A stretch of DNA of 64,000 bases from Promethearchaeota archaeon (GTDB lineage: Archaea; Asgardarchaeota; Lokiarchaeia; Sigyniarchaeales; SOKP01), in NCBI GenBank assembly GCA_019058245.1, contig JAHPZJ010000013.1:265166-329165 (forward strand). Reading direction: 5' to 3'. Under the pieces are notes generated by a model, which saw only the letters and a list, made by a program, of their open reading frames with translations, ran no database searches and was not told the origin of the DNA. The position numbers and the translations under genes were made by a program. This document shows, piece after piece, positions 56,259-61,603 of the stretch. The first letter of the stretch is position 1. Each line of letters opens with the position of its first letter.

Positions 56259-57062
56259 CTAAGAGTTTGATGGTTTACCGGAGTAAAAATTGATTAAATC
56301 ATCCAACCAATTGAAAATTTCTACTTTAGTTAAATTATCAATATTAAACTTTAATCTTTCTAATTCTCTAACAATATTTCTTATATCTAAAGGAACTGAT
56401 TTTTGACAGAGTTCAAACATAAATTCATTGCTTTTAGATACTAAAGATTTTATTTCAGAATCCATAGGATCAAACATGGGCGTGTTATCGATTTCGTCCA
56501 CGCTTCTATCAAAATCTACAAGAAGATTTATTAAATCAAAAAGTCTTCCTGTTTCATTTCCCTTAAATGCTTTGTTAAATTGAAAGTAGTATCCTTTGTA
56601 ATCATCAATAGGGATTAATTCTGAATATTGGTTTGCTATTTTGATCACAGATTTGAAATGTTTATAAAGATTTGATGGAGACCATGAATATATATCAAAG
56701 CTCGTCTCTACTTCGTTACTTCGTATATCTAAATTAAATTTATGTTCATCTTTAAAATAACCAAATGGAATAATAACAAAATCTAATGAGTTTGTAGAAT
56801 TGTTTCTTAAATTAAAATTCAAATCATCAATAGTATATGCTTGATCAATTGAATGCTTATATAAATCAAATCTAACTTTTTTAATATCTGGTTTGTACAT
56901 ATAGAATATTAACCCTTCAAATCCTTGAAGACTAAATTCTATTGAAAACTCGACATTTTTTTTACTTTTCGCCTCATTATTAAATCTTGCATTAAGAAAT
57001 AGATGATAATAATTTTCAAGATGCTGAAAAAACCATGGAGTATCACGTTTTAAATTAAACAT
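56259..57062 (-). CDS. Hypothetical protein
   Basis: 267-aa ORF with upstream GGAG; no motif recognised. Confidence 0.68.
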   Translation of the reverse strand: MFNLKRDTPWFFQHLENYYHLFLNARFNNEAKSKKNVEFSIEFSLQGFEGLIFYMYKPDIKKVRFDLYKHSIDQAYTIDDLNFNLRNNSTNSLDFVIIPFGYFKDEHKFNLDIRSNEVETSFDIYSWSPSNLYKHFKSVIKIANQYSELIPIDDYKGYYFQFNKAFKGNETGRLFDLINLLVDFDRSVDEIDNTPMFDPMDSEIKSLVSKSNEFMFELCQKSVPLDIRNIVRELERLKFNIDNLTKVEIFNWLDDLINFYSGKPSNS

Positions 57063-57264: not shown

Positions 57265-58146
57265 TTAGAGATTTTCAATAGCTGTATTTCGTCTAGTTCG
57301 ATGGTTTTTTAAACCAATCTCCTCAGAATTTACACCCATTGCTAAAGCTAATAATTCAGTTACATATAATACTGGAATATTATATTCAGATTCAAATTTC
57401 TTTGAAAGATTTCGCTGTTCACCATCCAACCGTTGAAAACACGCTGGACAATTTACAACGATACAATTAGCGCCAGCTTTTTTAATCGAATCAAGTTTTT
57501 GCTTCAATATTGCATCTCCATGTTCTGGAAAAGGTCCAGCAACAGCATTTCCACAACAAAGTCCTAATTCTTCGTAATCAACAACATTAGCTCCCGAAGC
57601 AGCAACAATTTCTTTCAAATTTTTTGGACGTAGAGGATCATCAGAATCCATCCATTCAACAGGTCTCATGTAATGACAACCTGGGTGGCAAGCAACCTTT
57701 AGATCACTCATCTGCTTTGTAATTCCTCCTTTTATTGCATTTAATTTTGATAGTAAAACATCAACAAAATGTTTTACATCAATGGAACCTTTATATTCCT
57801 TTCCAATCTTGGCCAATTCTTTGTTTATGGCCTCTTTTTTATTGGAATCATGCTTTAATTGATGTTGTACTCCACGAAGTGTATTAGCACAACCATTACA
57901 AAGCGAAATTATATCTTTACCTTCAGCTTCAGCCAAACATAAATTTCGAGCACCTAAAGCTAACCAAGTGGTATTATCAAAACTTTTAACTCCAGTAGGA
58001 TCTGGACAACATGCAAAAGGAGCTTGTGAAGTTTGCACTCCAATTTTATCAAAAACTTTTCTGGAAGCTGCTTCAATAAACGGAATTCTGTTTCCAATAG
58101 TACACCCTTCAAACATTTTATATTCTGTCATTTTGTTTTCCTCCAT
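57265..58146 (-). CDS. hdrB: Heterodisulfide reductase subunit B
   Basis: Two CCG domains: FEGC...CCP...CNGC and HPGCH...CCG...CPAC. Confidence 0.93.
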   Translation of the reverse strand: MEENKMTEYKMFEGCTIGNRIPFIEAASRKVFDKIGVQTSQAPFACCPDPTGVKSFDNTTWLALGARNLCLAEAEGKDIISLCNGCANTLRGVQHQLKHDSNKKEAINKELAKIGKEYKGSIDVKHFVDVLLSKLNAIKGGITKQMSDLKVACHPGCHYMRPVEWMDSDDPLRPKNLKEIVAASGANVVDYEELGLCCGNAVAGPFPEHGDAILKQKLDSIKKAGANCIVVNCPACFQRLDGEQRNLSKKFESEYNIPVLYVTELLALAMGVNSEEIGLKNHRTRRNTAIENL

Positions 58147-58670
58147 TATAATTTTTTATCAGCACCTACTGCTTTTAATAAAGTTTGAACTTCATTGACA
58201 TCTGGTGTAACAACACCAGGTAAGCCTAATTGCTCACGTCTTCTCTCGATAGCTGGTTGAGATGGAATTGCTTTACCACTTTCAAATACTGTTTTTGCTT
58301 GAGCTACAATATTATCAGGTGCCAGTCCTGCTCCTGTTGTAACGTTTTTTGCTAATGCTATTATTTCCGTAACCTCAATCGCCTGAGGACAAACAGTATC
58401 ACAAGTATCGCATACTGTACAACCCCATGGTATGATTGCAGATTTTGTGCCTGCTAACATCATTACTACATCTTTATATCCTAAAAGAGTTCCTAAAACA
58501 ATTAATCTAGGATCAAAAACGTTTTCATAAAAAGGATTAGCTACAGAGGCAACAGGACAATTATCCGTACATCTATTACATTGATAACAGTATTTGATTT
58601 TATCAGATCCAATATGAACGTCCATTATTAATTTCCTAAATTCAAAATCTATACCTACAGGTAATGCCAT
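58146..58670 (-). CDS. hdrC: Heterodisulfide reductase subunit C
   Basis: CYQCNRCTDNCP and CTVCDTCDTVCP; stop overlaps the hdrB start (TAATG). Confidence 0.92.
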   Translation of the reverse strand: MALPVGIDFEFRKLIMDVHIGSDKIKYCYQCNRCTDNCPVASVANPFYENVFDPRLIVLGTLLGYKDVVMMLAGTKSAIIPWGCTVCDTCDTVCPQAIEVTEIIALAKNVTTGAGLAPDNIVAQAKTVFESGKAIPSQPAIERRREQLGLPGVVTPDVNEVQTLLKAVGADKKL

Positions 58671-58720
58671 TTTTTTCACGTTTTTTTTGAGTTTTTTTCA
58701 TTTCATTTTTACTTATTTTT

Positions 58721-58795
58721 TGTTGGTTTTAACCCATGCAAGGGCAGTCATATCCAATCTATTATTTTTATTGGATAATTCATCCTAAACCAACA
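58721..58795 (-). promoter_or_regulatory. Eukaryote-type SECIS element of vhuU
   Basis: Minus-strand UGUUGGUUUagg-AUGAA-uUAUCCAAU-AAAAAuaauag-AUUGGAUA-UGAC...AAACCAACA: AUGA/GA core, 8-bp helix II, apical A-run, 9-bp outer helix. Confidence 0.8.
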
Positions 58796-58929
58796 TTTAG
58801 CTCACGAGAGTAAATTTCTTTACCCCTCTCATCAACAACAGTGATGTGAGCGGCACATGATAGTCAACAATCATAACATCGAACTATCATTTCCAAGACA
58901 TTTACTACTCCTTCTGGTATATCACTCAT
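58780..58929 (-). CDS. vhuU: Selenocysteine-containing [NiFeSe] hydrogenase small peptide VhuU (in-frame UGA at 58864-58866)
   Basis: Manual translation MSDIPEGVVNVLEMIVRCYDC-U-LSCAAHITVVDERGKEIYSRELNVGLG; supplies the C-terminal Ni-binding motif missing from the upstream large subunit. Confidence 0.92.
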
Positions 58930-58966
58930 TTTTTTTATTCACGCTCTATATTAATTTTGAATTAAT

Positions 58967-60274
58967 CTATTTAATCCATGGATCTGGTAATTTTAATCCG
59001 TCCAAGGCTTTATCTTCAAATACTTGCTTCGCTGAGTGCATTAAAGACTTTTCGATTCCTGCGATGTTATGATTTGTAGCAACTAAAAGATTCAACTTCT
59101 TACAAATACCTTCAGCATCAGACCAAATGTTATATAGGAGAAGTCCTCGTGGAGCTTCTGTAACTCCAACACCATTTCCTTCTCTTGGTTCAACATCGAG
59201 TGTTTTGCAATCAGGATTCACGATATCAGGATCTTTGAGTAATGTAGCAATCATCTCAATTGATTCTACCATTTCAATTATTCTCGCCCAGTGATATGCA
59301 AAAGTATGGTGTATTACATTAGTACCTATTTTTTCTCTCATTGCCTTTAACGCATCATCTGCTAATGGTGTAGCCATTTTGTCAGCACAATTAATCATTG
59401 CTAAAGTATTCGCTCGATAAATACCCTCAGGGTATCCCGCTGGCTTATAGTACATATGAGTTGCATAAGAATGTTTAGGAATATGTTCTCCAAGTGCTTC
59501 CAGATAATTTTGAGGTTTATAATCAAATTTCTCTCCGGTTGGAGAAACAATTCGGATATCACCATCATAAATATCATGAACACCATTTTTTGTTAACCCT
59601 ACATAATAAGTAGGCACAACACCGACATTAGCTACAACATCCCAATAATCTTCTACAACTTTTAAAGCAATATCAACCGTTTTCTTTGTAAATTCTATTT
59701 GTTCATCAATTACTTTTAAGAATTTATCACGTACGTCTTCATCTAAAGGCTTTTTCATGCCTCCAACTATCGCAGATATTGGATGAACAGCTTTACCACC
59801 TACTGCAGCACATAATTTCTGACCGAAATCCATCATCTTTAACGCCATAGCTCCAACATCAGGCATTTTATTTATTACATGAACAACATTTCTTAAAGCC
59901 GGATCTGCGAAAGGTCCTAATAAGAAATCAGGAGCCGCAAGAGCATAGAAATGAATAACATGTGATGAATATTGTTTCGCATTGATTAATAACTGTCGTA
60001 ATTTATATGCGGGGGTAGGTATCTGAACACCCCAAGCGTCTTCTACTGCTTTAGTGGGTGTTAGATGATGAGGAATTGGACAAATACCACAAATTCTTGG
60101 AGTTATTCGAGGTACATGTTCGCAATAACGTCCCTCGACAAATTTCTCAAAAAATCTTGTTGATTGGATATTGAATTGAACATCCTTTACTGTACCATCA
60201 TCTCCAAGTACTACCCTCAACCCACCATGACCCTCTAATCGGGTAACAGGTTCAACTTCTATTTCTTTTACCAT
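58967..60274 (-). CDS. vhuA: F420-non-reducing (group 3c) hydrogenase large subunit, split type lacking the C-terminal motif
   Basis: EPVTRLEGHG, RICGICPIPH L1 motif, EAPRG, LVAT; ends at PDPWIK without DPCxxC. Confidence 0.92.
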   Translation of the reverse strand: MVKEIEVEPVTRLEGHGGLRVVLGDDGTVKDVQFNIQSTRFFEKFVEGRYCEHVPRITPRICGICPIPHHLTPTKAVEDAWGVQIPTPAYKLRQLLINAKQYSSHVIHFYALAAPDFLLGPFADPALRNVVHVINKMPDVGAMALKMMDFGQKLCAAVGGKAVHPISAIVGGMKKPLDEDVRDKFLKVIDEQIEFTKKTVDIALKVVEDYWDVVANVGVVPTYYVGLTKNGVHDIYDGDIRIVSPTGEKFDYKPQNYLEALGEHIPKHSYATHMYYKPAGYPEGIYRANTLAMINCADKMATPLADDALKAMREKIGTNVIHHTFAYHWARIIEMVESIEMIATLLKDPDIVNPDCKTLDVEPREGNGVGVTEAPRGLLLYNIWSDAEGICKKLNLLVATNHNIAGIEKSLMHSAKQVFEDKALDGLKLPDPWIK

Positions 60275-60277
60275 TTA

Positions 60278-61603
60278 TTATGCACCTCCTTTTCTTGATG
60301 CTAATGTAAATTTCTCAAAAGTACCAATAGGATCTTTGACTTGGGAAAGCAATTCCTCTTTAGATAAGCTTATGTTAAATCCTTTCAGTACTGTATCAGC
60401 AAACCTCTCTGCTTGATTAACACCCCATTTGGTCTGTCCATAACAACCCGTACATGGAGCATTAACTTTAATGCATAAGGCACCACAGCCAGCTTGAGTT
60501 ACAGGACCCATACAAATATAACCTTGTTCAAGTAAACAATCTTCCATATTTGGTATTCCTTCGTAATCTCGCTTAACCCTTGTCATTGTAGATTTACTTC
60601 CAATGATTCTTGGACATGTATCACAGACATTTGAAATTTCATGGAAATCAGGATTATCTCTTAAGAAGCTCATTAAATTCGAAGCAATTTCCTCAGTTGT
60701 AGGGGGAAGATTTGCTAATTGTGTCTCTGGAGCACCATGTTTCTTTATTTGTTTTAAAATATCACCAGCAAGATCAAAACCAGCCATTAAAGGAAGATTT
60801 AAAAACAGTGGTAAAAATTCAAAAATACTCTTTTTATCACCTGAACTTATGGCTCCAAGATCTTTTGTCATACTATTTAATTTTTCAGCTCTAACACCTA
60901 CTGTCTTAGCCGGTCCCATACAACCTAAACATGGAGATCCATTATTTGGACATTTCAATGAACATCCAATGCTTGTAATTGGTCCGAAACACAATTTACC
61001 TGCATCTAATAGACATCCAGATTGATTTAATGCACAATCATTACAAAATGCCAAATCATTCATAGGGAATGGCTTTTGACCGAGTAAAAACCCAATTGCA
61101 CTATATATTTGTTGTGATTTTGGAGGACACCCCGACATATATGCATCCACTTTGATTACCCTATCTACGGGTACAATCTTGGATTCAAAACCAGGAACAT
61201 GTTCCGTTGGTTCTCCACCACTTTCATCTGCAATACTCTCTACTTGTGAGAATTTTCTGTCAATTAACTCTTGTATATCCCATTGGTTAGCTAATCCATG
61301 TACATTTCCATAACATGAACAACTACCAAAAGCTACAATAATAGCACATTTTTGACGCATTAATTTTGTACCTTCAACATCTTGTTTAGTTCGAAGGCTC
61401 CCTTCTATAAATCCAACAACAATTTCACCATCTTCTCTAGCTTCCAACGAATTATACTTGAAATCAACTACTGCTGGCCAATAGACAATCTCTAGCGCTG
61501 GTAAGACTGGCAAAAGGGCTAGATGTAAATCAATTAAACTCTGATGACAACCCCAACAGTCACTATTTTGCCAAAATGCAACCTTAACAGGTATAGAGAT
61601 CAC
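60278..61603 (-). CDS. vhuG: F420-non-reducing hydrogenase small subunit with duplicated C-terminal Fe-S module
   Basis: CWGC, FIEGS, AFGSCSCYG, GCPP, then two CxxC...CLL..G..C.GP.T..GC...C......C.GC.G modules. Confidence 0.88.
   Translation of the reverse strand: MISIPVKVAFWQNSDCWGCHQSLIDLHLALLPVLPALEIVYWPAVVDFKYNSLEAREDGEIVVGFIEGSLRTKQDVEGTKLMRQKCAIIVAFGSCSCYGNVHGLANQWDIQELIDRKFSQVESIADESGGEPTEHVPGFESKIVPVDRVIKVDAYMSGCPPKSQQIYSAIGFLLGQKPFPMNDLAFCNDCALNQSGCLLDAGKLCFGPITSIGCSLKCPNNGSPCLGCMGPAKTVGVRAEKLNSMTKDLGAISSGDKKSIFEFLPLFLNLPLMAGFDLAGDILKQIKKHGAPETQLANLPPTTEEIASNLMSFLRDNPDFHEISNVCDTCPRIIGSKSTMTRVKRDYEGIPNMEDCLLEQGYICMGPVTQAGCGALCIKVNAPCTGCYGQTKWGVNQAERFADTVLKGFNISLSKEELLSQVKDPIGTFEKFTLASRKGGA

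What the first reader, a model, noticed from the sequence alone, without database searches (positions are those of the whole stretch)
58780..58929. Hidden selenoprotein VhuU completes a split [NiFeSe] hydrogenase
Seen: the large subunit stops before its C-terminal metal-binding motif. 37 nt later a 49-codon frame absent from the ORF track reads ...RCYDC-UGA-LSCAAH-ITVV..., with UGA exactly at the Ni-ligating Cys position. Established: Methanococcus VhuA/VhuU is split in this way with Sec, and Sec-containing VhuU has been reported in Lokiarchaeota. Standard annotation will miss it. The 21-aa tail after His implies endopeptidase processing.
Basis: partly seen in the sequence, partly recalled or inferred. 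Interest (0 to 1): 0.78.

Follow-up and report, generated by a model that had tools for sequence, protein, structure and literature searches.

The report
Hidden selenocysteine hydrogenase subunit VhuU
A 49-codon gene that ordinary gene callers miss supplies, through a UGA read as selenocysteine, the missing nickel-binding end of a split hydrogenase in a Loki-type Asgard archaeon; it is real, but it was described for this lineage in 2016.

Summary
On the minus strand, a VhuA-type [NiFe] hydrogenase large subunit (58967-60274) stops before its C-terminal metal motif. A 49-codon frame (58783-58929) starts 37 nt later. It carries R-C-Y-D-C-[TGA]-L-S-C-A-A-H and a 21-residue tail.

The TGA (58864-58866) aligns with the first Cys of DPCxxCxxH in solved MvhA, and with the selenocysteine of the solved 27-residue VhuU of Methanococcus maripaludis (PDB 9sfi). 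It is invariant in all 100 related loci where the frame could be examined. Sequence after it evolves as coding sequence, and rare Cys versions exist.

The gene's UGA stop lies inside the AUGA core of a eukaryote-like 'lokiSECIS' hairpin. That hairpin shows compensatory changes.

The genome (76% complete) holds SepSecS, EFSec, a PSTK-like kinase, three VhuD-like genes with two TGAs each, and a tRNA-Sec that standard tools missed because two introns split it. selD was not found in this assembly, but 20 of 20 relatives have it.

The gene, the stop/SECIS overlap and its spread in Asgard archaea are already published (Mariotti 2016; ISME J 2024). An overlapping window of this scan noted the same stretch. 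The lesser points I did not find described are a CxxC-Sec motif, the second tRNA-Sec intron, and duplicate operons without vhuU.

The parts
60278..61603 (-). vhuG-like hydrogenase small subunit (441 aa), first gene of the cluster. It has a second copy of the Cys-rich Fe-S module.
   Evidence: Pfam Oxidored_q6, E 2.5e-21. Best NCBIfam hit is VhuG at 233 bits, below the cut-off of 450. Translation.
58967..60274 (-). vhuA-like [NiFe(Se)] hydrogenase large subunit (435 aa). It has the RICGIC N-terminal ligands and lacks the C-terminal DPCxxCxxH motif.
   Evidence: PDB 9sfi_g, E 9e-123 over residues 4-419; MvhA 5odc_F, E 3e-101. Best NCBIfam hit is VhuA at 465 bits, covering 3-417 of 418 model positions, below the cut-off of 800.
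58930..58966 (-). 37-nt spacer between the vhuA stop (TAA) and the vhuU ATG. The two genes are in different frames.
   Evidence: Sequence.
58783..58929 (-). vhuU coding sequence: 49 codons including one Sec codon. Motif R-C-Y-D-C-U-L-S-C-A-A-H plus a 21-residue tail.
   Evidence: Translation. NCBIfam VhuU NF041786, E 5e-14, 51.8 bits. PDB alignments. Conservation.
58864..58866 (-). In-frame UGA read as selenocysteine, at the position of the terminal Ni-ligating Cys.
   Evidence: Aligned with X of 9sfi_M and with the first Cys of DPC in 5odc, 7t2r and 9sw2. TGA in 30/30 and 70/70 loci. Cys in four rare homologs.
58780..58782 (-). UGA stop codon of vhuU. Together with A58783 it forms the AUGA of the SECIS core.
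   Evidence: Sequence. TGA at the same spot is the stop in 64 of the 69 loci scored. The same overlap is reported for Loki VhuU.1 in PMC4989117.
58748..58783 (-). lokiSECIS (eukaryote-like, type I). AUGA 58783-58780; 8-bp helix 58777-58770 with 58758-58751, plus a U-U at its base; 11-nt apical loop AAAAAUAAUAG 58769-58759; 3' GA 58749-58748.
   Evidence: Fold. Alignment fold with compensatory pairs in the stem. Matches the published description of 9-bp stem, 11-nt loop, A-rich start, terminal G and AUGA/GA. The same pattern lies downstream of two VhuD-like two-TGA genes of this genome.
58722..58794 (-). Whole conserved RNA structure. An outer 8-bp helix (58787-58794 with 58722-58729) starts inside the last vhuU codons. 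It encloses the SECIS hairpin and a small CCC/GGG hairpin (58742-58744 with 58733-58735).
   Evidence: RNAalifold on 17 genus sequences gives 19 pairs. Four pairs have changes on both sides, two of them in the outer helix (UA to AU, UA to CG).
58146..58679 (-). hdrC-like gene (4Fe-4S dicluster) immediately downstream. The likely start is ATG 58670.
   Evidence: Pfam Fer4_8. Best NCBIfam hit is HdrC TIGR03290, E 1.5e-19, below cut-off.
57265..58146 (-). hdrB-like gene (two CCG domains).
   Evidence: Pfam CCG, E 1.8e-26. Best NCBIfam hit is HdrB TIGR03288 at 262 bits, below the cut-off of 345.

Best explanation
The frame 58783-58929 (minus strand) is vhuU. It encodes the separately translated C-terminal piece of a group 3c (Mvh/Vhu-type) [NiFeSe] hydrogenase large subunit in a Loki-type Asgard archaeon (Promethearchaeota).

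Shown here:
- The cluster vhuG-vhuA-vhuU-hdrC-hdrB lies on one strand.
- vhuA lacks the C-terminal ligands and vhuU supplies them.
- Codon 22 is an invariant UGA flanked by sequence under purifying selection in that frame.
- A conserved eukaryote-like SECIS hairpin starts about 80 nt after this UGA. Its AUGA core contains the gene's own UGA stop.
- The genome encodes tRNA-Sec, SepSecS, EFSec and a PSTK-like kinase, and carries further TGA-containing VhuD-like genes.

Inferred from Methanococcus Vhu and other [NiFe(Se)] enzymes:
- EFSec with Sec-tRNA(Sec) recodes the first UGA under the direction of the SECIS.
- The second UGA terminates because it sits inside the SECIS core and is too close to be recoded.
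- VhuU docks on VhuA, so that Sec22 and Cys25 join the two N-terminal cysteines of VhuA (RICGIC) around the Ni-Fe centre.
- The 21-residue tail after His28 is removed by a HycI-family endopeptidase once nickel is inserted.
- The enzyme feeds electrons from H2, via VhuG and a VhuD/HdrA pair encoded elsewhere, to HdrBC.
For: - Anatomy.
- Homology: 9sfi_g at E 9e-123, with a separate VhuU chain in the same entry. The peptide aligns to residues 425-451 of unsplit MvhA, and its TGA falls on the X of 9sfi_M. The best NCBIfam hits are VhuA, VhuG and VhuU.
- Conservation: TGA in 30/30 loci across four families and in 70/70 further Promethearchaeota loci. 207 of 400 genomes of the phylum have the gene, and all but one of about 150 listed matches have exactly one TGA.
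- Coding signal after the TGA: variable sites at codon positions 1/2/3 are 0/0/5 in LSCAAH and 6/2/19 in the tail. Ser switches between TCN and AGY.
- Sec/Cys pairs: P0014 and P0029-P0031 read D-C-C.
- TGA is otherwise an ordinary stop: 159 of 1143 long ORFs end in it.
- SECIS. It matches the description in PMC4989117.
- Machinery: SepSecS at 371 bits. EFSec at 236 bits, about 4 kb from tRNA-Sec on the opposite strand, as in Loki. The best hit of the kinase is PSTK. tRNA-Sec lies at C14:82523-82679, and ARAGORN calls it tRNA-SeC(tca) once two insertions are removed.
- Other selenoprotein genes: three VhuD-like genes with 2 TGA each, two of them followed by the same SECIS pattern.
- Endopeptidase: C20, TIGR00072 at 64 bits, above its cut-off.
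Against: - selD (selenophosphate synthetase) was not found in this assembly. The best TIGR00476 score is 56 bits against a cut-off of 125, and tblastx with relatives' selD loci found nothing. The assembly is only 76% complete, and 20 of 20 relatives have selD.
- The PSTK, VhuA, VhuG and VhuU scores are all below NCBIfam's equivalog cut-offs.
- No Rfam family matches the SECIS.
- The SECIS hairpin alone is not more stable than shuffled sequence (z -0.95). Its support is conservation and covariation, not energy.
- There is no protein-level evidence of selenium in any Asgard VhuU.
Confidence: 0.93

Rival explanations
1. The UGA is decoded, but not as selenocysteine. Near-cognate or suppressor read-through would insert Cys or Trp, giving a [NiFe] rather than a [NiFeSe] site in this organism.
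For: selD was not found in the assembly. Cys versions of the peptide exist in nature, so a Cys enzyme is viable.
Against: - tRNA-Sec, SepSecS, EFSec and a PSTK-like kinase are all present.
- A conserved SECIS sits at the expected place.
- All 20 relatives searched carry selD, itself with one TGA.
- If Cys were intended, TGT or TGC would be one mutation away, yet it occurs in 0 of 100 examined loci.
Confidence: 0.04
2. The UGA is a true stop. The 49-codon frame would be the decaying remnant of the large subunit's C-terminus, and the hydrogenase would be inactive or would use other ligands.
For: About nine related loci have the same truncated vhuA followed directly by hdrC with no vhuU. This shows that a vhuA gene can persist without an adjacent vhuU.
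Against: - The frame downstream of the TGA is conserved with a third-position substitution pattern, and Ser codon-family switches keep the residue.
- The metal-binding residues C-x-x-H are invariant in 100 loci.
- The structured SECIS is conserved.
- The vhuU-less loci are recent duplicates in genomes that also carry a vhuU-bearing copy.
Confidence: 0.02
3. The TGA is an assembly or sequencing error in this MAG.
For: None specific. MAGs do carry errors.
Against: The identical codon is found at the same position in independent assemblies from many studies and sites.
Confidence: 0.01

Closest known systems
Lokiarchaeota VhuU (VhuU.1) with its lokiSECIS (Mariotti et al. 2016, Mol Biol Evol, PMC4989117). 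Surveyed across Asgard archaea as the 'FrhA/MvhA/VhuU' selenoprotein family (ISME J 2024, PMC11227280).
   Same: Same lineage and same peptide of about 50 aa with a single Sec. The SECIS is the same type: AUGA, 9-bp stem, 11-nt loop starting AAAAA and ending G. The AUGA of the SECIS overlaps the UGA stop in the same way. EFSec lies a few kb from tRNA-Sec on the opposite strand, and tRNA-Sec has a T-loop intron.
   Different: - The 3' core dinucleotide here is GA. The paper reports AA for its VhuU set, and the AA form does occur in half of the genus.
- One extra A separates AUGA from the stem, and the base pair of the stem is U-U.
- An outer helix reaching into the coding sequence and a CCC/GGG hairpin were not mentioned in the passages I read.
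- tRNA-Sec here has a second, D-arm insertion.
Methanococcus VhuA/VhuU, the split F420-non-reducing [NiFeSe] hydrogenase. Solved as VhuADGU in the M. maripaludis Hdr-Vhu-Fwd super-assembly (PDB 9sfi, PMC13518236).
   Same: The large subunit is cut at the same point: a 418-aa VhuA against 435 aa here, E 9e-123. A separate small peptide carries Sec-x-x-Cys-x-x-His, and Sec falls in the same column. Both associate with Hdr.
   Different: - The Methanococcus motif is R-A-Y-D-P-Sec. Here it is R-C-Y-D-C-Sec, with two extra cysteines forming CxxC-Sec.
- The SECIS is eukaryote-like, not the methanogen type.
- The gene neighbours are hdrC and hdrB, not vhuD and vhuB.
- The small subunit is 441 aa with a duplicated Fe-S module.
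- The host is not a methanogen.
- Scores lie below NCBIfam's equivalog cut-offs.
Unsplit MvhA of Methanothermococcus thermolithotrophicus (PDB 5odc) and other group 3 [NiFe] large subunits.
   Same: Same fold family (E 3e-101). The VhuU peptide aligns to residues 425-452, which include DPCLSCATH.
   Different: MvhA is one polypeptide with Cys, not Sec.

Membership tests
VhuU (selenoprotein subunit of F420-non-reducing hydrogenase; NCBIfam NF041786) | A peptide of about 45-50 residues that matches the family profile. | tested here: inconclusive
   Best NCBIfam hit, E 5.1e-14, 51.8 bits over model positions 4-39 of 45. This is below the curated equivalog cut-off of 70, which is tuned to Methanococcales.
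VhuU | An in-frame UGA at the first Cys of the C-terminal D-P-C-x-x-C-x-x-H nickel-binding motif. | tested here: met
   The TGA aligns with X of 9sfi_M and with the Cys of DPC in 5odc, 7t2r and 9sw2. The Pro is replaced by Cys.
VhuU | Encoded directly after a large-subunit gene that lacks the C-terminal motif. | tested here: met
   vhuA ends 37 nt upstream and matches 3-417 of the 418-position VhuA model.
VhuU | A C-terminal extension after His that is removed by a maturation endopeptidase. | tested here: inconclusive
   A 21-residue tail is present and conserved. A HycI-family protease gene is in the genome, TIGR00072 at 64 bits against a cut-off of 47. Cleavage itself cannot be tested here. 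One relative (L027) has a stop 6 codons after His.
Archaeal/eukaryotic selenoprotein gene | A SECIS element 3' of the Sec codon. | tested here: met
   The lokiSECIS features are all present at 58748-58783. The structure is conserved with 4 compensatory pairs and fits the published description. No Rfam model exists for it.
Archaeal/eukaryotic selenoprotein gene | Homologs with Cys at the UGA position. | tested here: met
   P0014 and P0029-P0031 read D-C-C-L-[ST]-C-A-[AS]-H. One Cys copy occurs in G216.
Archaeal/eukaryotic selenoprotein gene | Sec machinery in the genome: tRNA-Sec, PSTK, SepSecS, EFSec and SelD. | tested here: inconclusive
   - SepSecS: 371 bits, above cut-off.
- EFSec: 236 bits against a cut-off of 242.
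- PSTK: best hit, 143 bits against a cut-off of 290.
- tRNA-Sec: found only after removing two insertions; Rfam gives 27.9 bits locally.
- SelD: not found in the 76% complete assembly, but present in 20/20 relatives.
Group 3c [NiFe] hydrogenase (Mvh/Vhu) | A large subunit with the N-terminal RxCGxC ligands, a small subunit of the Oxidored_q6 type, and closest relatives among Mvh/Vhu. | tested here: met
   RICGIC is present. The top PDB hits are Vhu and Mvh. The best NCBIfam hits are VhuG and VhuA.
Group 3c [NiFe] hydrogenase (Mvh/Vhu) | Association with MvhD/VhuD and HdrABC. | tested here: inconclusive
   hdrC and hdrB follow in the same cluster. No vhuD or hdrA is adjacent. There are 15 MvhD-domain matches elsewhere in the genome, three of them with 2 TGA. 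Physical association cannot be tested here.

The most novel reading that the evidence does not exclude
The Loki-type VhuU replaces the near-universal R-A-Y-D-P-[Cys/Sec] with R-C-[YF]-D-C-Sec, so a CxxC pair abuts the Ni-ligating selenocysteine. The motif is kept in families f1 and f2 and in the rare Cys versions (D-C-C). It is absent from genus g5 (D-P-U) and family f4 (D-F-U).

The most novel reading is that the vicinal Cys forms a reversible selenenyl-sulfide with Sec, as in the thioredoxin-reductase G-C-U-G motif. Such a bond could protect the [NiFeSe] site from oxidation or gate it, or serve during nickel insertion. I did not find this remarked in the passages of the 2016 and 2024 papers that I searched.
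Probability: 0.12. Interest if true: 0.6.

Novelty: already known. Interest (0 to 1): 0.27.

Why it matters
It confirms that this hydrogenase is complete and selenium-dependent, not truncated. That matters for metabolic reconstruction of Loki-type Asgard archaea, whose H2 metabolism is central to syntrophy models of eukaryogenesis. It also gives a concrete example of what annotation pipelines lose here. The peptide is missing or mistranslated in public protein sets, and the tRNA-Sec is invisible to Rfam and ARAGORN because of introns. As biology it repeats published work. Only the CxxC-Sec motif, the second tRNA-Sec intron and the vhuU-less duplicate operons add small new questions.

Tried and rejected
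- Rfam at gathering score over the window, and at E<=10 over 58100-59000, found no SECIS family. Rfam seems to hold no model of the Asgard SECIS.
- Rfam tRNA-Sec over the whole genome gave only tRNA-Gly and tRNA-Ser look-alikes.
- ARAGORN over the genome finds few tRNAs. With introns allowed it calls a 'tRNA-SeC' with a 2923-nt intron on C15, which I reject as spurious. The real gene came from blastn with relatives' tRNA-Sec.
- selD: the four weak TIGR00476 hits (at most 56 bits) are other AIR-synthase-type proteins, not SelD. tblastx with two same-genus selD loci, flanks included, found nothing. The whole region is therefore unassembled; this does not show that the gene was lost.
- Reassignment of TGA genome-wide is rejected: 14% of long ORFs end in TGA.
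- Folding energy of the SECIS alone is uninformative (z -0.95).
- The careful tree of large subunits did not finish, so the quick tree was used.
- No structure was predicted. The tools fold single chains, and a 49-residue peptide alone would be meaningless.

Full report
**1. What is in the sequence**

The feature lies on the minus strand.

- A 435-residue ORF (58967-60274) ends ...LPDPWIK-TAA.
- After a 37-nt gap (58930-58966), in another frame, an ATG at 58929 opens a frame of 49 sense codons.
- That frame reads M-S-D-I-P-E-G-V-V-N-V-L-E-M-I-V-R-C-Y-D-C-[TGA]-L-S-C-A-A-H, followed by 21 more residues ending G-L-G, then a second TGA (58782-58780).
- The internal TGA is at 58866-58864.
- The ORF listing at a 40-aa minimum does not list this frame.

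Every number in the finding is correct.

**2. What the neighbours are**

Five genes lie head to tail on the minus strand.

| Coordinates | Length | Assignment | Evidence |
|---|---|---|---|
| 60278-61603 | 441 aa | Small subunit | Oxidored_q6; best NCBIfam hit VhuG |
| 58967-60274 | 435 aa | Large subunit | Best NCBIfam hit VhuA, 465 bits, covering 3-417 of a 418-position model |
| 58783-58929 | 49 codons | Small frame (vhuU) | See sections 3-4 |
| 58146-58679 | 177 aa | HdrC-like | Best NCBIfam hit HdrC |
| 57265-58146 | 293 aa | HdrB-like | Best NCBIfam hit HdrB |

All of these scores are below NCBIfam's equivalog cut-offs, as expected for a lineage far from the methanogens on which the models were built.

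The large subunit keeps the N-terminal RICGIC nickel ligands. It has no C-terminal DPCxxCxxH.

**3. Identity of the small frame**

- Against solved structures, the large subunit's best match is chain g of 9sfi (418 aa, E 9e-123). Next are the unsplit MvhA chains 5odc_F and 9sw2_F.
- Entry 9sfi is the Methanococcus maripaludis Hdr-Vhu-Fwd super-assembly (PMC13518236). It holds a separate 27-residue chain M, the VhuU subunit.
- The window's peptide aligns to residues 425-451 of the unsplit MvhA chains: ...E-M-[LV]-I-R-A-Y-D-P-C-L-S-C-A-T-H.
- It also aligns to chain M...L-R-A-Y-D-P-X-Y-S-C-A-A-H-M. The TGA falls on the X, which is Sec, and on the first Cys of DPC.
- By established knowledge of [NiFe] and [NiFeSe] hydrogenases, that position is the terminal nickel ligand that is Sec in [NiFeSe] enzymes.
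- NCBIfam's VhuU model is the peptide's best hit (E 5e-14, 51.8 bits, cut-off 70).

**4. Is the TGA translated?**

- Order-level sample. I fetched orthologous loci from 30 genomes of the same order, spanning four families, with large subunits 55-98% identical. All 30 have the small frame, and all 30 have TGA at the same codon.
- Wider scan. A scan of species-representative genomes gave 80 more loci, almost all titled Promethearchaeota or Promethearchaeia.
  - 70 carry the frame with TGA, and none has TGT or TGC.
  - One ends at the contig edge.
  - Nine have no vhuU at all.
- Coding signal. Within the genus, the 21 codons before the TGA vary at 4/1/13 sites by codon position. The six codons after it vary at 0/0/5, and the tail at 6/2/19. 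Across the order, the Ser after the TGA switches between TCN and AGY codons. The sequence after the TGA is therefore under selection as protein in this frame.
- Cys homologs. The public protein collection holds four rare homologs with Cys at the TGA position (D-C-C-L-S-C-A-A-H). This is the classical Sec/Cys criterion.
- No reassignment. TGA is otherwise an ordinary stop here, ending 159 of 1143 long ORFs.
- Phylum level. 207 of 400 genomes have the gene. Of about 150 listed matches, all but one contain exactly one TGA.

**5. The SECIS**

- Directly at the end of the gene, G-G-A-U-G-A gives an AUGA (58783-58780) whose UGA is the stop codon.
- An 8-bp helix follows (58777-58770 with 58758-58751), with a U-U at its base.
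- The 11-nt apical loop reads A-A-A-A-A-U-A-A-U-A-G.
- A 3' G-A lies at 58749-58748.

This is the 'lokiSECIS' of Mariotti et al. 2016. That paper describes AUGA, a 9-bp stem, an 11-nt loop beginning with adenines and ending in G, and then GA (AA in their VhuU set). It also notes that in VhuU.1 the AUGA doubles as the stop codon (PMC4989117).

In 17 sequences of the genus, RNAalifold finds 19 pairs in three helices. Four pairs are changed on both sides. Two of these lie in an outer helix (58787-58794 with 58722-58729), whose 5' strand is the last codons of vhuU. A small CCC/GGG hairpin follows the SECIS and recurs, in G+C-rich form, in the other families. Half of the genus has the published AA form and half, including this window, has GA.

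The hairpin's folding energy alone is not significant (z -0.95). The support is conservation, covariation and the match to the published element.

A simple pattern for the element finds 31 places in the genome. They include this one and sites just downstream of two of the three VhuD-like genes that carry two in-frame TGAs.

**6. Sec machinery**

The genome is a 3.09-Mb, 29% G+C assembly rated 76% complete.

| Component | Result |
|---|---|
| SepSecS | C14:82902-84059, 371 bits, above cut-off |
| EFSec / SelB | C14:77365-78255, 236 bits, cut-off 242 |
| PSTK-like kinase | C31, best hit selen_PSTK, 143 bits, cut-off 290 |
| HycI-family endopeptidase | C20, above the superfamily cut-off |
| tRNA-Sec | Missed by Rfam and ARAGORN; found by blastn (see below) |
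| selD | Not found (see below) |

- tRNA-Sec. Rfam and ARAGORN did not find it. Blastn with the intron-less tRNA-Sec of same-genus relatives located it at C14:82523-82679, just upstream of SepSecS. It is interrupted by a 34-nt insertion in the D-arm and a 30-nt insertion in the T-loop. With both removed in silico, ARAGORN calls a 93-nt tRNA-SeC with anticodon TCA. The precursor folds with a 9-bp acceptor stem. Mariotti et al. reported a 31-nt T-loop intron and EFSec about 6 kb away on the opposite strand. The D-arm insertion is additional.
- selD. The best score was 56 bits against a cut-off of 125, and tblastx with relatives' selD loci found nothing. All 20 relatives searched have selD, each with one TGA.

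**7. How it most likely works**

Shown here:
- The gene arrangement.
- The invariant UGA within a translated frame.
- The SECIS.
- The machinery genes.
- The Cys homologs.

Inferred from Methanococcus Vhu and from [NiFe(Se)] enzymology:
- EFSec with Sec-tRNA(Sec) recodes UGA-22, about 80 nt upstream of the SECIS core.
- The terminal UGA, inside the core, is too close to be recoded and therefore terminates. This is the argument made in PMC4989117.
- VhuU binds VhuA, so that Sec22 and Cys25 complete the Ni-Fe site together with the RICGIC cysteines.
- The 21-residue tail is cleaved after metal insertion.
- Electrons pass through VhuG to an Hdr module, of which the C and B subunits are encoded next door and the HdrA/VhuD pairs elsewhere.

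**8. Rivals**

- Read-through as Cys or Trp without selenium (0.04). This rests only on the missing selD. It is opposed by the dedicated machinery, by the SECIS, and by the total absence of TGT or TGC.
- A true stop or a pseudogene (0.02). This is excluded by the coding signal after the TGA.
- A sequencing error (0.01). This is excluded by independent assemblies.

**9. Comparison and novelty**

This is the VhuU selenoprotein gene of Lokiarchaeota described in 2016. A 2024 survey found the family in 68% of Sec-using Asgard archaea (PMC11227280). Features already in the literature:
- the stop/SECIS overlap;
- the AUGA...GA/AA core;
- the intron-bearing tRNA-Sec;
- the EFSec neighbourhood.

I therefore rate the finding as already known.

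Only 27 unnamed clusters exist in 5.8 billion. Most of those I read were translated with W at both TGAs, as by a wrong genetic code.

**10. What is left that I did not find described**

- **(a) CxxC-Sec motif.** The motif is R-C-[YF]-D-C-Sec where Methanococcus VhuU has R-A-Y-D-P-Sec and unsplit MvhA has R-A-Y-D-P-Cys. It is kept in the Cys variants but not in all families. A selenenyl-sulfide switch is possible but untested.
- **(b) Second tRNA-Sec intron.** This is the D-arm insertion.
- **(c) Operons without vhuU.** About nine loci have the truncated vhuA followed directly by hdrC. Several are second copies in a MAG that also has a vhuU-bearing operon, and they are scattered on the large-subunit tree.
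- **(d) Extended RNA structure.** This is the outer helix and the extra hairpin around the SECIS.

None of these changes the verdict.

Noticed in passing
G000 contig C14:82523-82679 (+), = L003:1122-1278: tRNA-Sec is split by two insertions, 34 nt in the D-arm and 30 nt in the T-loop. Rfam and ARAGORN therefore miss it. Same-genus relatives (for example L053, L054, L056, L057) have an uninterrupted 89-nt gene. Published Loki tRNA-Sec has only the T-loop intron.
   Followed up: partly
58852-58878 (-); loci L014-L043: The Sec is preceded by C-x-x-C (R-C-Y-D-C-U) in place of the canonical R-A-Y-D-P-[C/U]. Genus g5 has D-P-U and family f4 has D-F-U. The Cys variants keep D-C-C.
   Followed up: partly
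L096, L098, L103, L110, L120, L122, L127, L140, L142: A truncated vhuA (84-88% identical to the window's) is followed directly by an hdrC-like gene with no vhuU between. Several are second copies in MAGs that also have a vhuU-bearing operon (L101/L103, L110/L125, L098/L132, L127/L133). They are scattered on the tree, so they are recent duplicates that lost vhuU or use it in trans.
   Followed up: partly
L027 (G012:C49): This vhuU has an in-frame TAA six codons after the His, with the SECIS still downstream. It is a natural truncation of the tail that is presumed to be cleaved off.
   Followed up: no
60278-61603 (-): The small subunit is 441 aa, against about 290 aa for VhuG, and carries two copies of the Cys-rich C-x-x-C...C-x-G-P...G-C...C...P-C-x-G-C module. 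The C-terminal 250 residues have no Pfam hit.
   Followed up: no
G000 C13:38121-38489, C17:90686-91054, C28:244065-244427: Three MvhD/VhuD-like genes carry two in-frame TGAs each, among 15 MvhD-domain matches in the genome. A lokiSECIS-pattern hairpin lies just downstream of the C17 and C28 copies. Further pattern hits with 11-nt loops ending AG occur at C10:58290 and 60085, C13:146168, and C27:41928 and 42395.
   Followed up: partly
56259-57062 (-): A 267-aa ORF directly after hdrB has no Pfam or NCBIfam match. It may belong to the same operon.
   Followed up: no
G216:C96:5423-5566: This is the only match without a TGA among about 150 listed in the phylum scan. It is a Cys-type vhuU in a genome that also has the Sec type, so possibly a Sec/Cys isoenzyme pair as in Methanococcus.
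   Followed up: no
L069, L075, L086, L108, L128 (record titles): Several contigs with 86-95% identical vhuA are titled Odinarchaeota, Thorarchaeota, Hodarchaeota, Thermoplasmata or Nanopelagicaceae. On the large-subunit tree they sit among the Promethearchaeota loci, so these are probably mislabelled or misbinned records.
   Followed up: no
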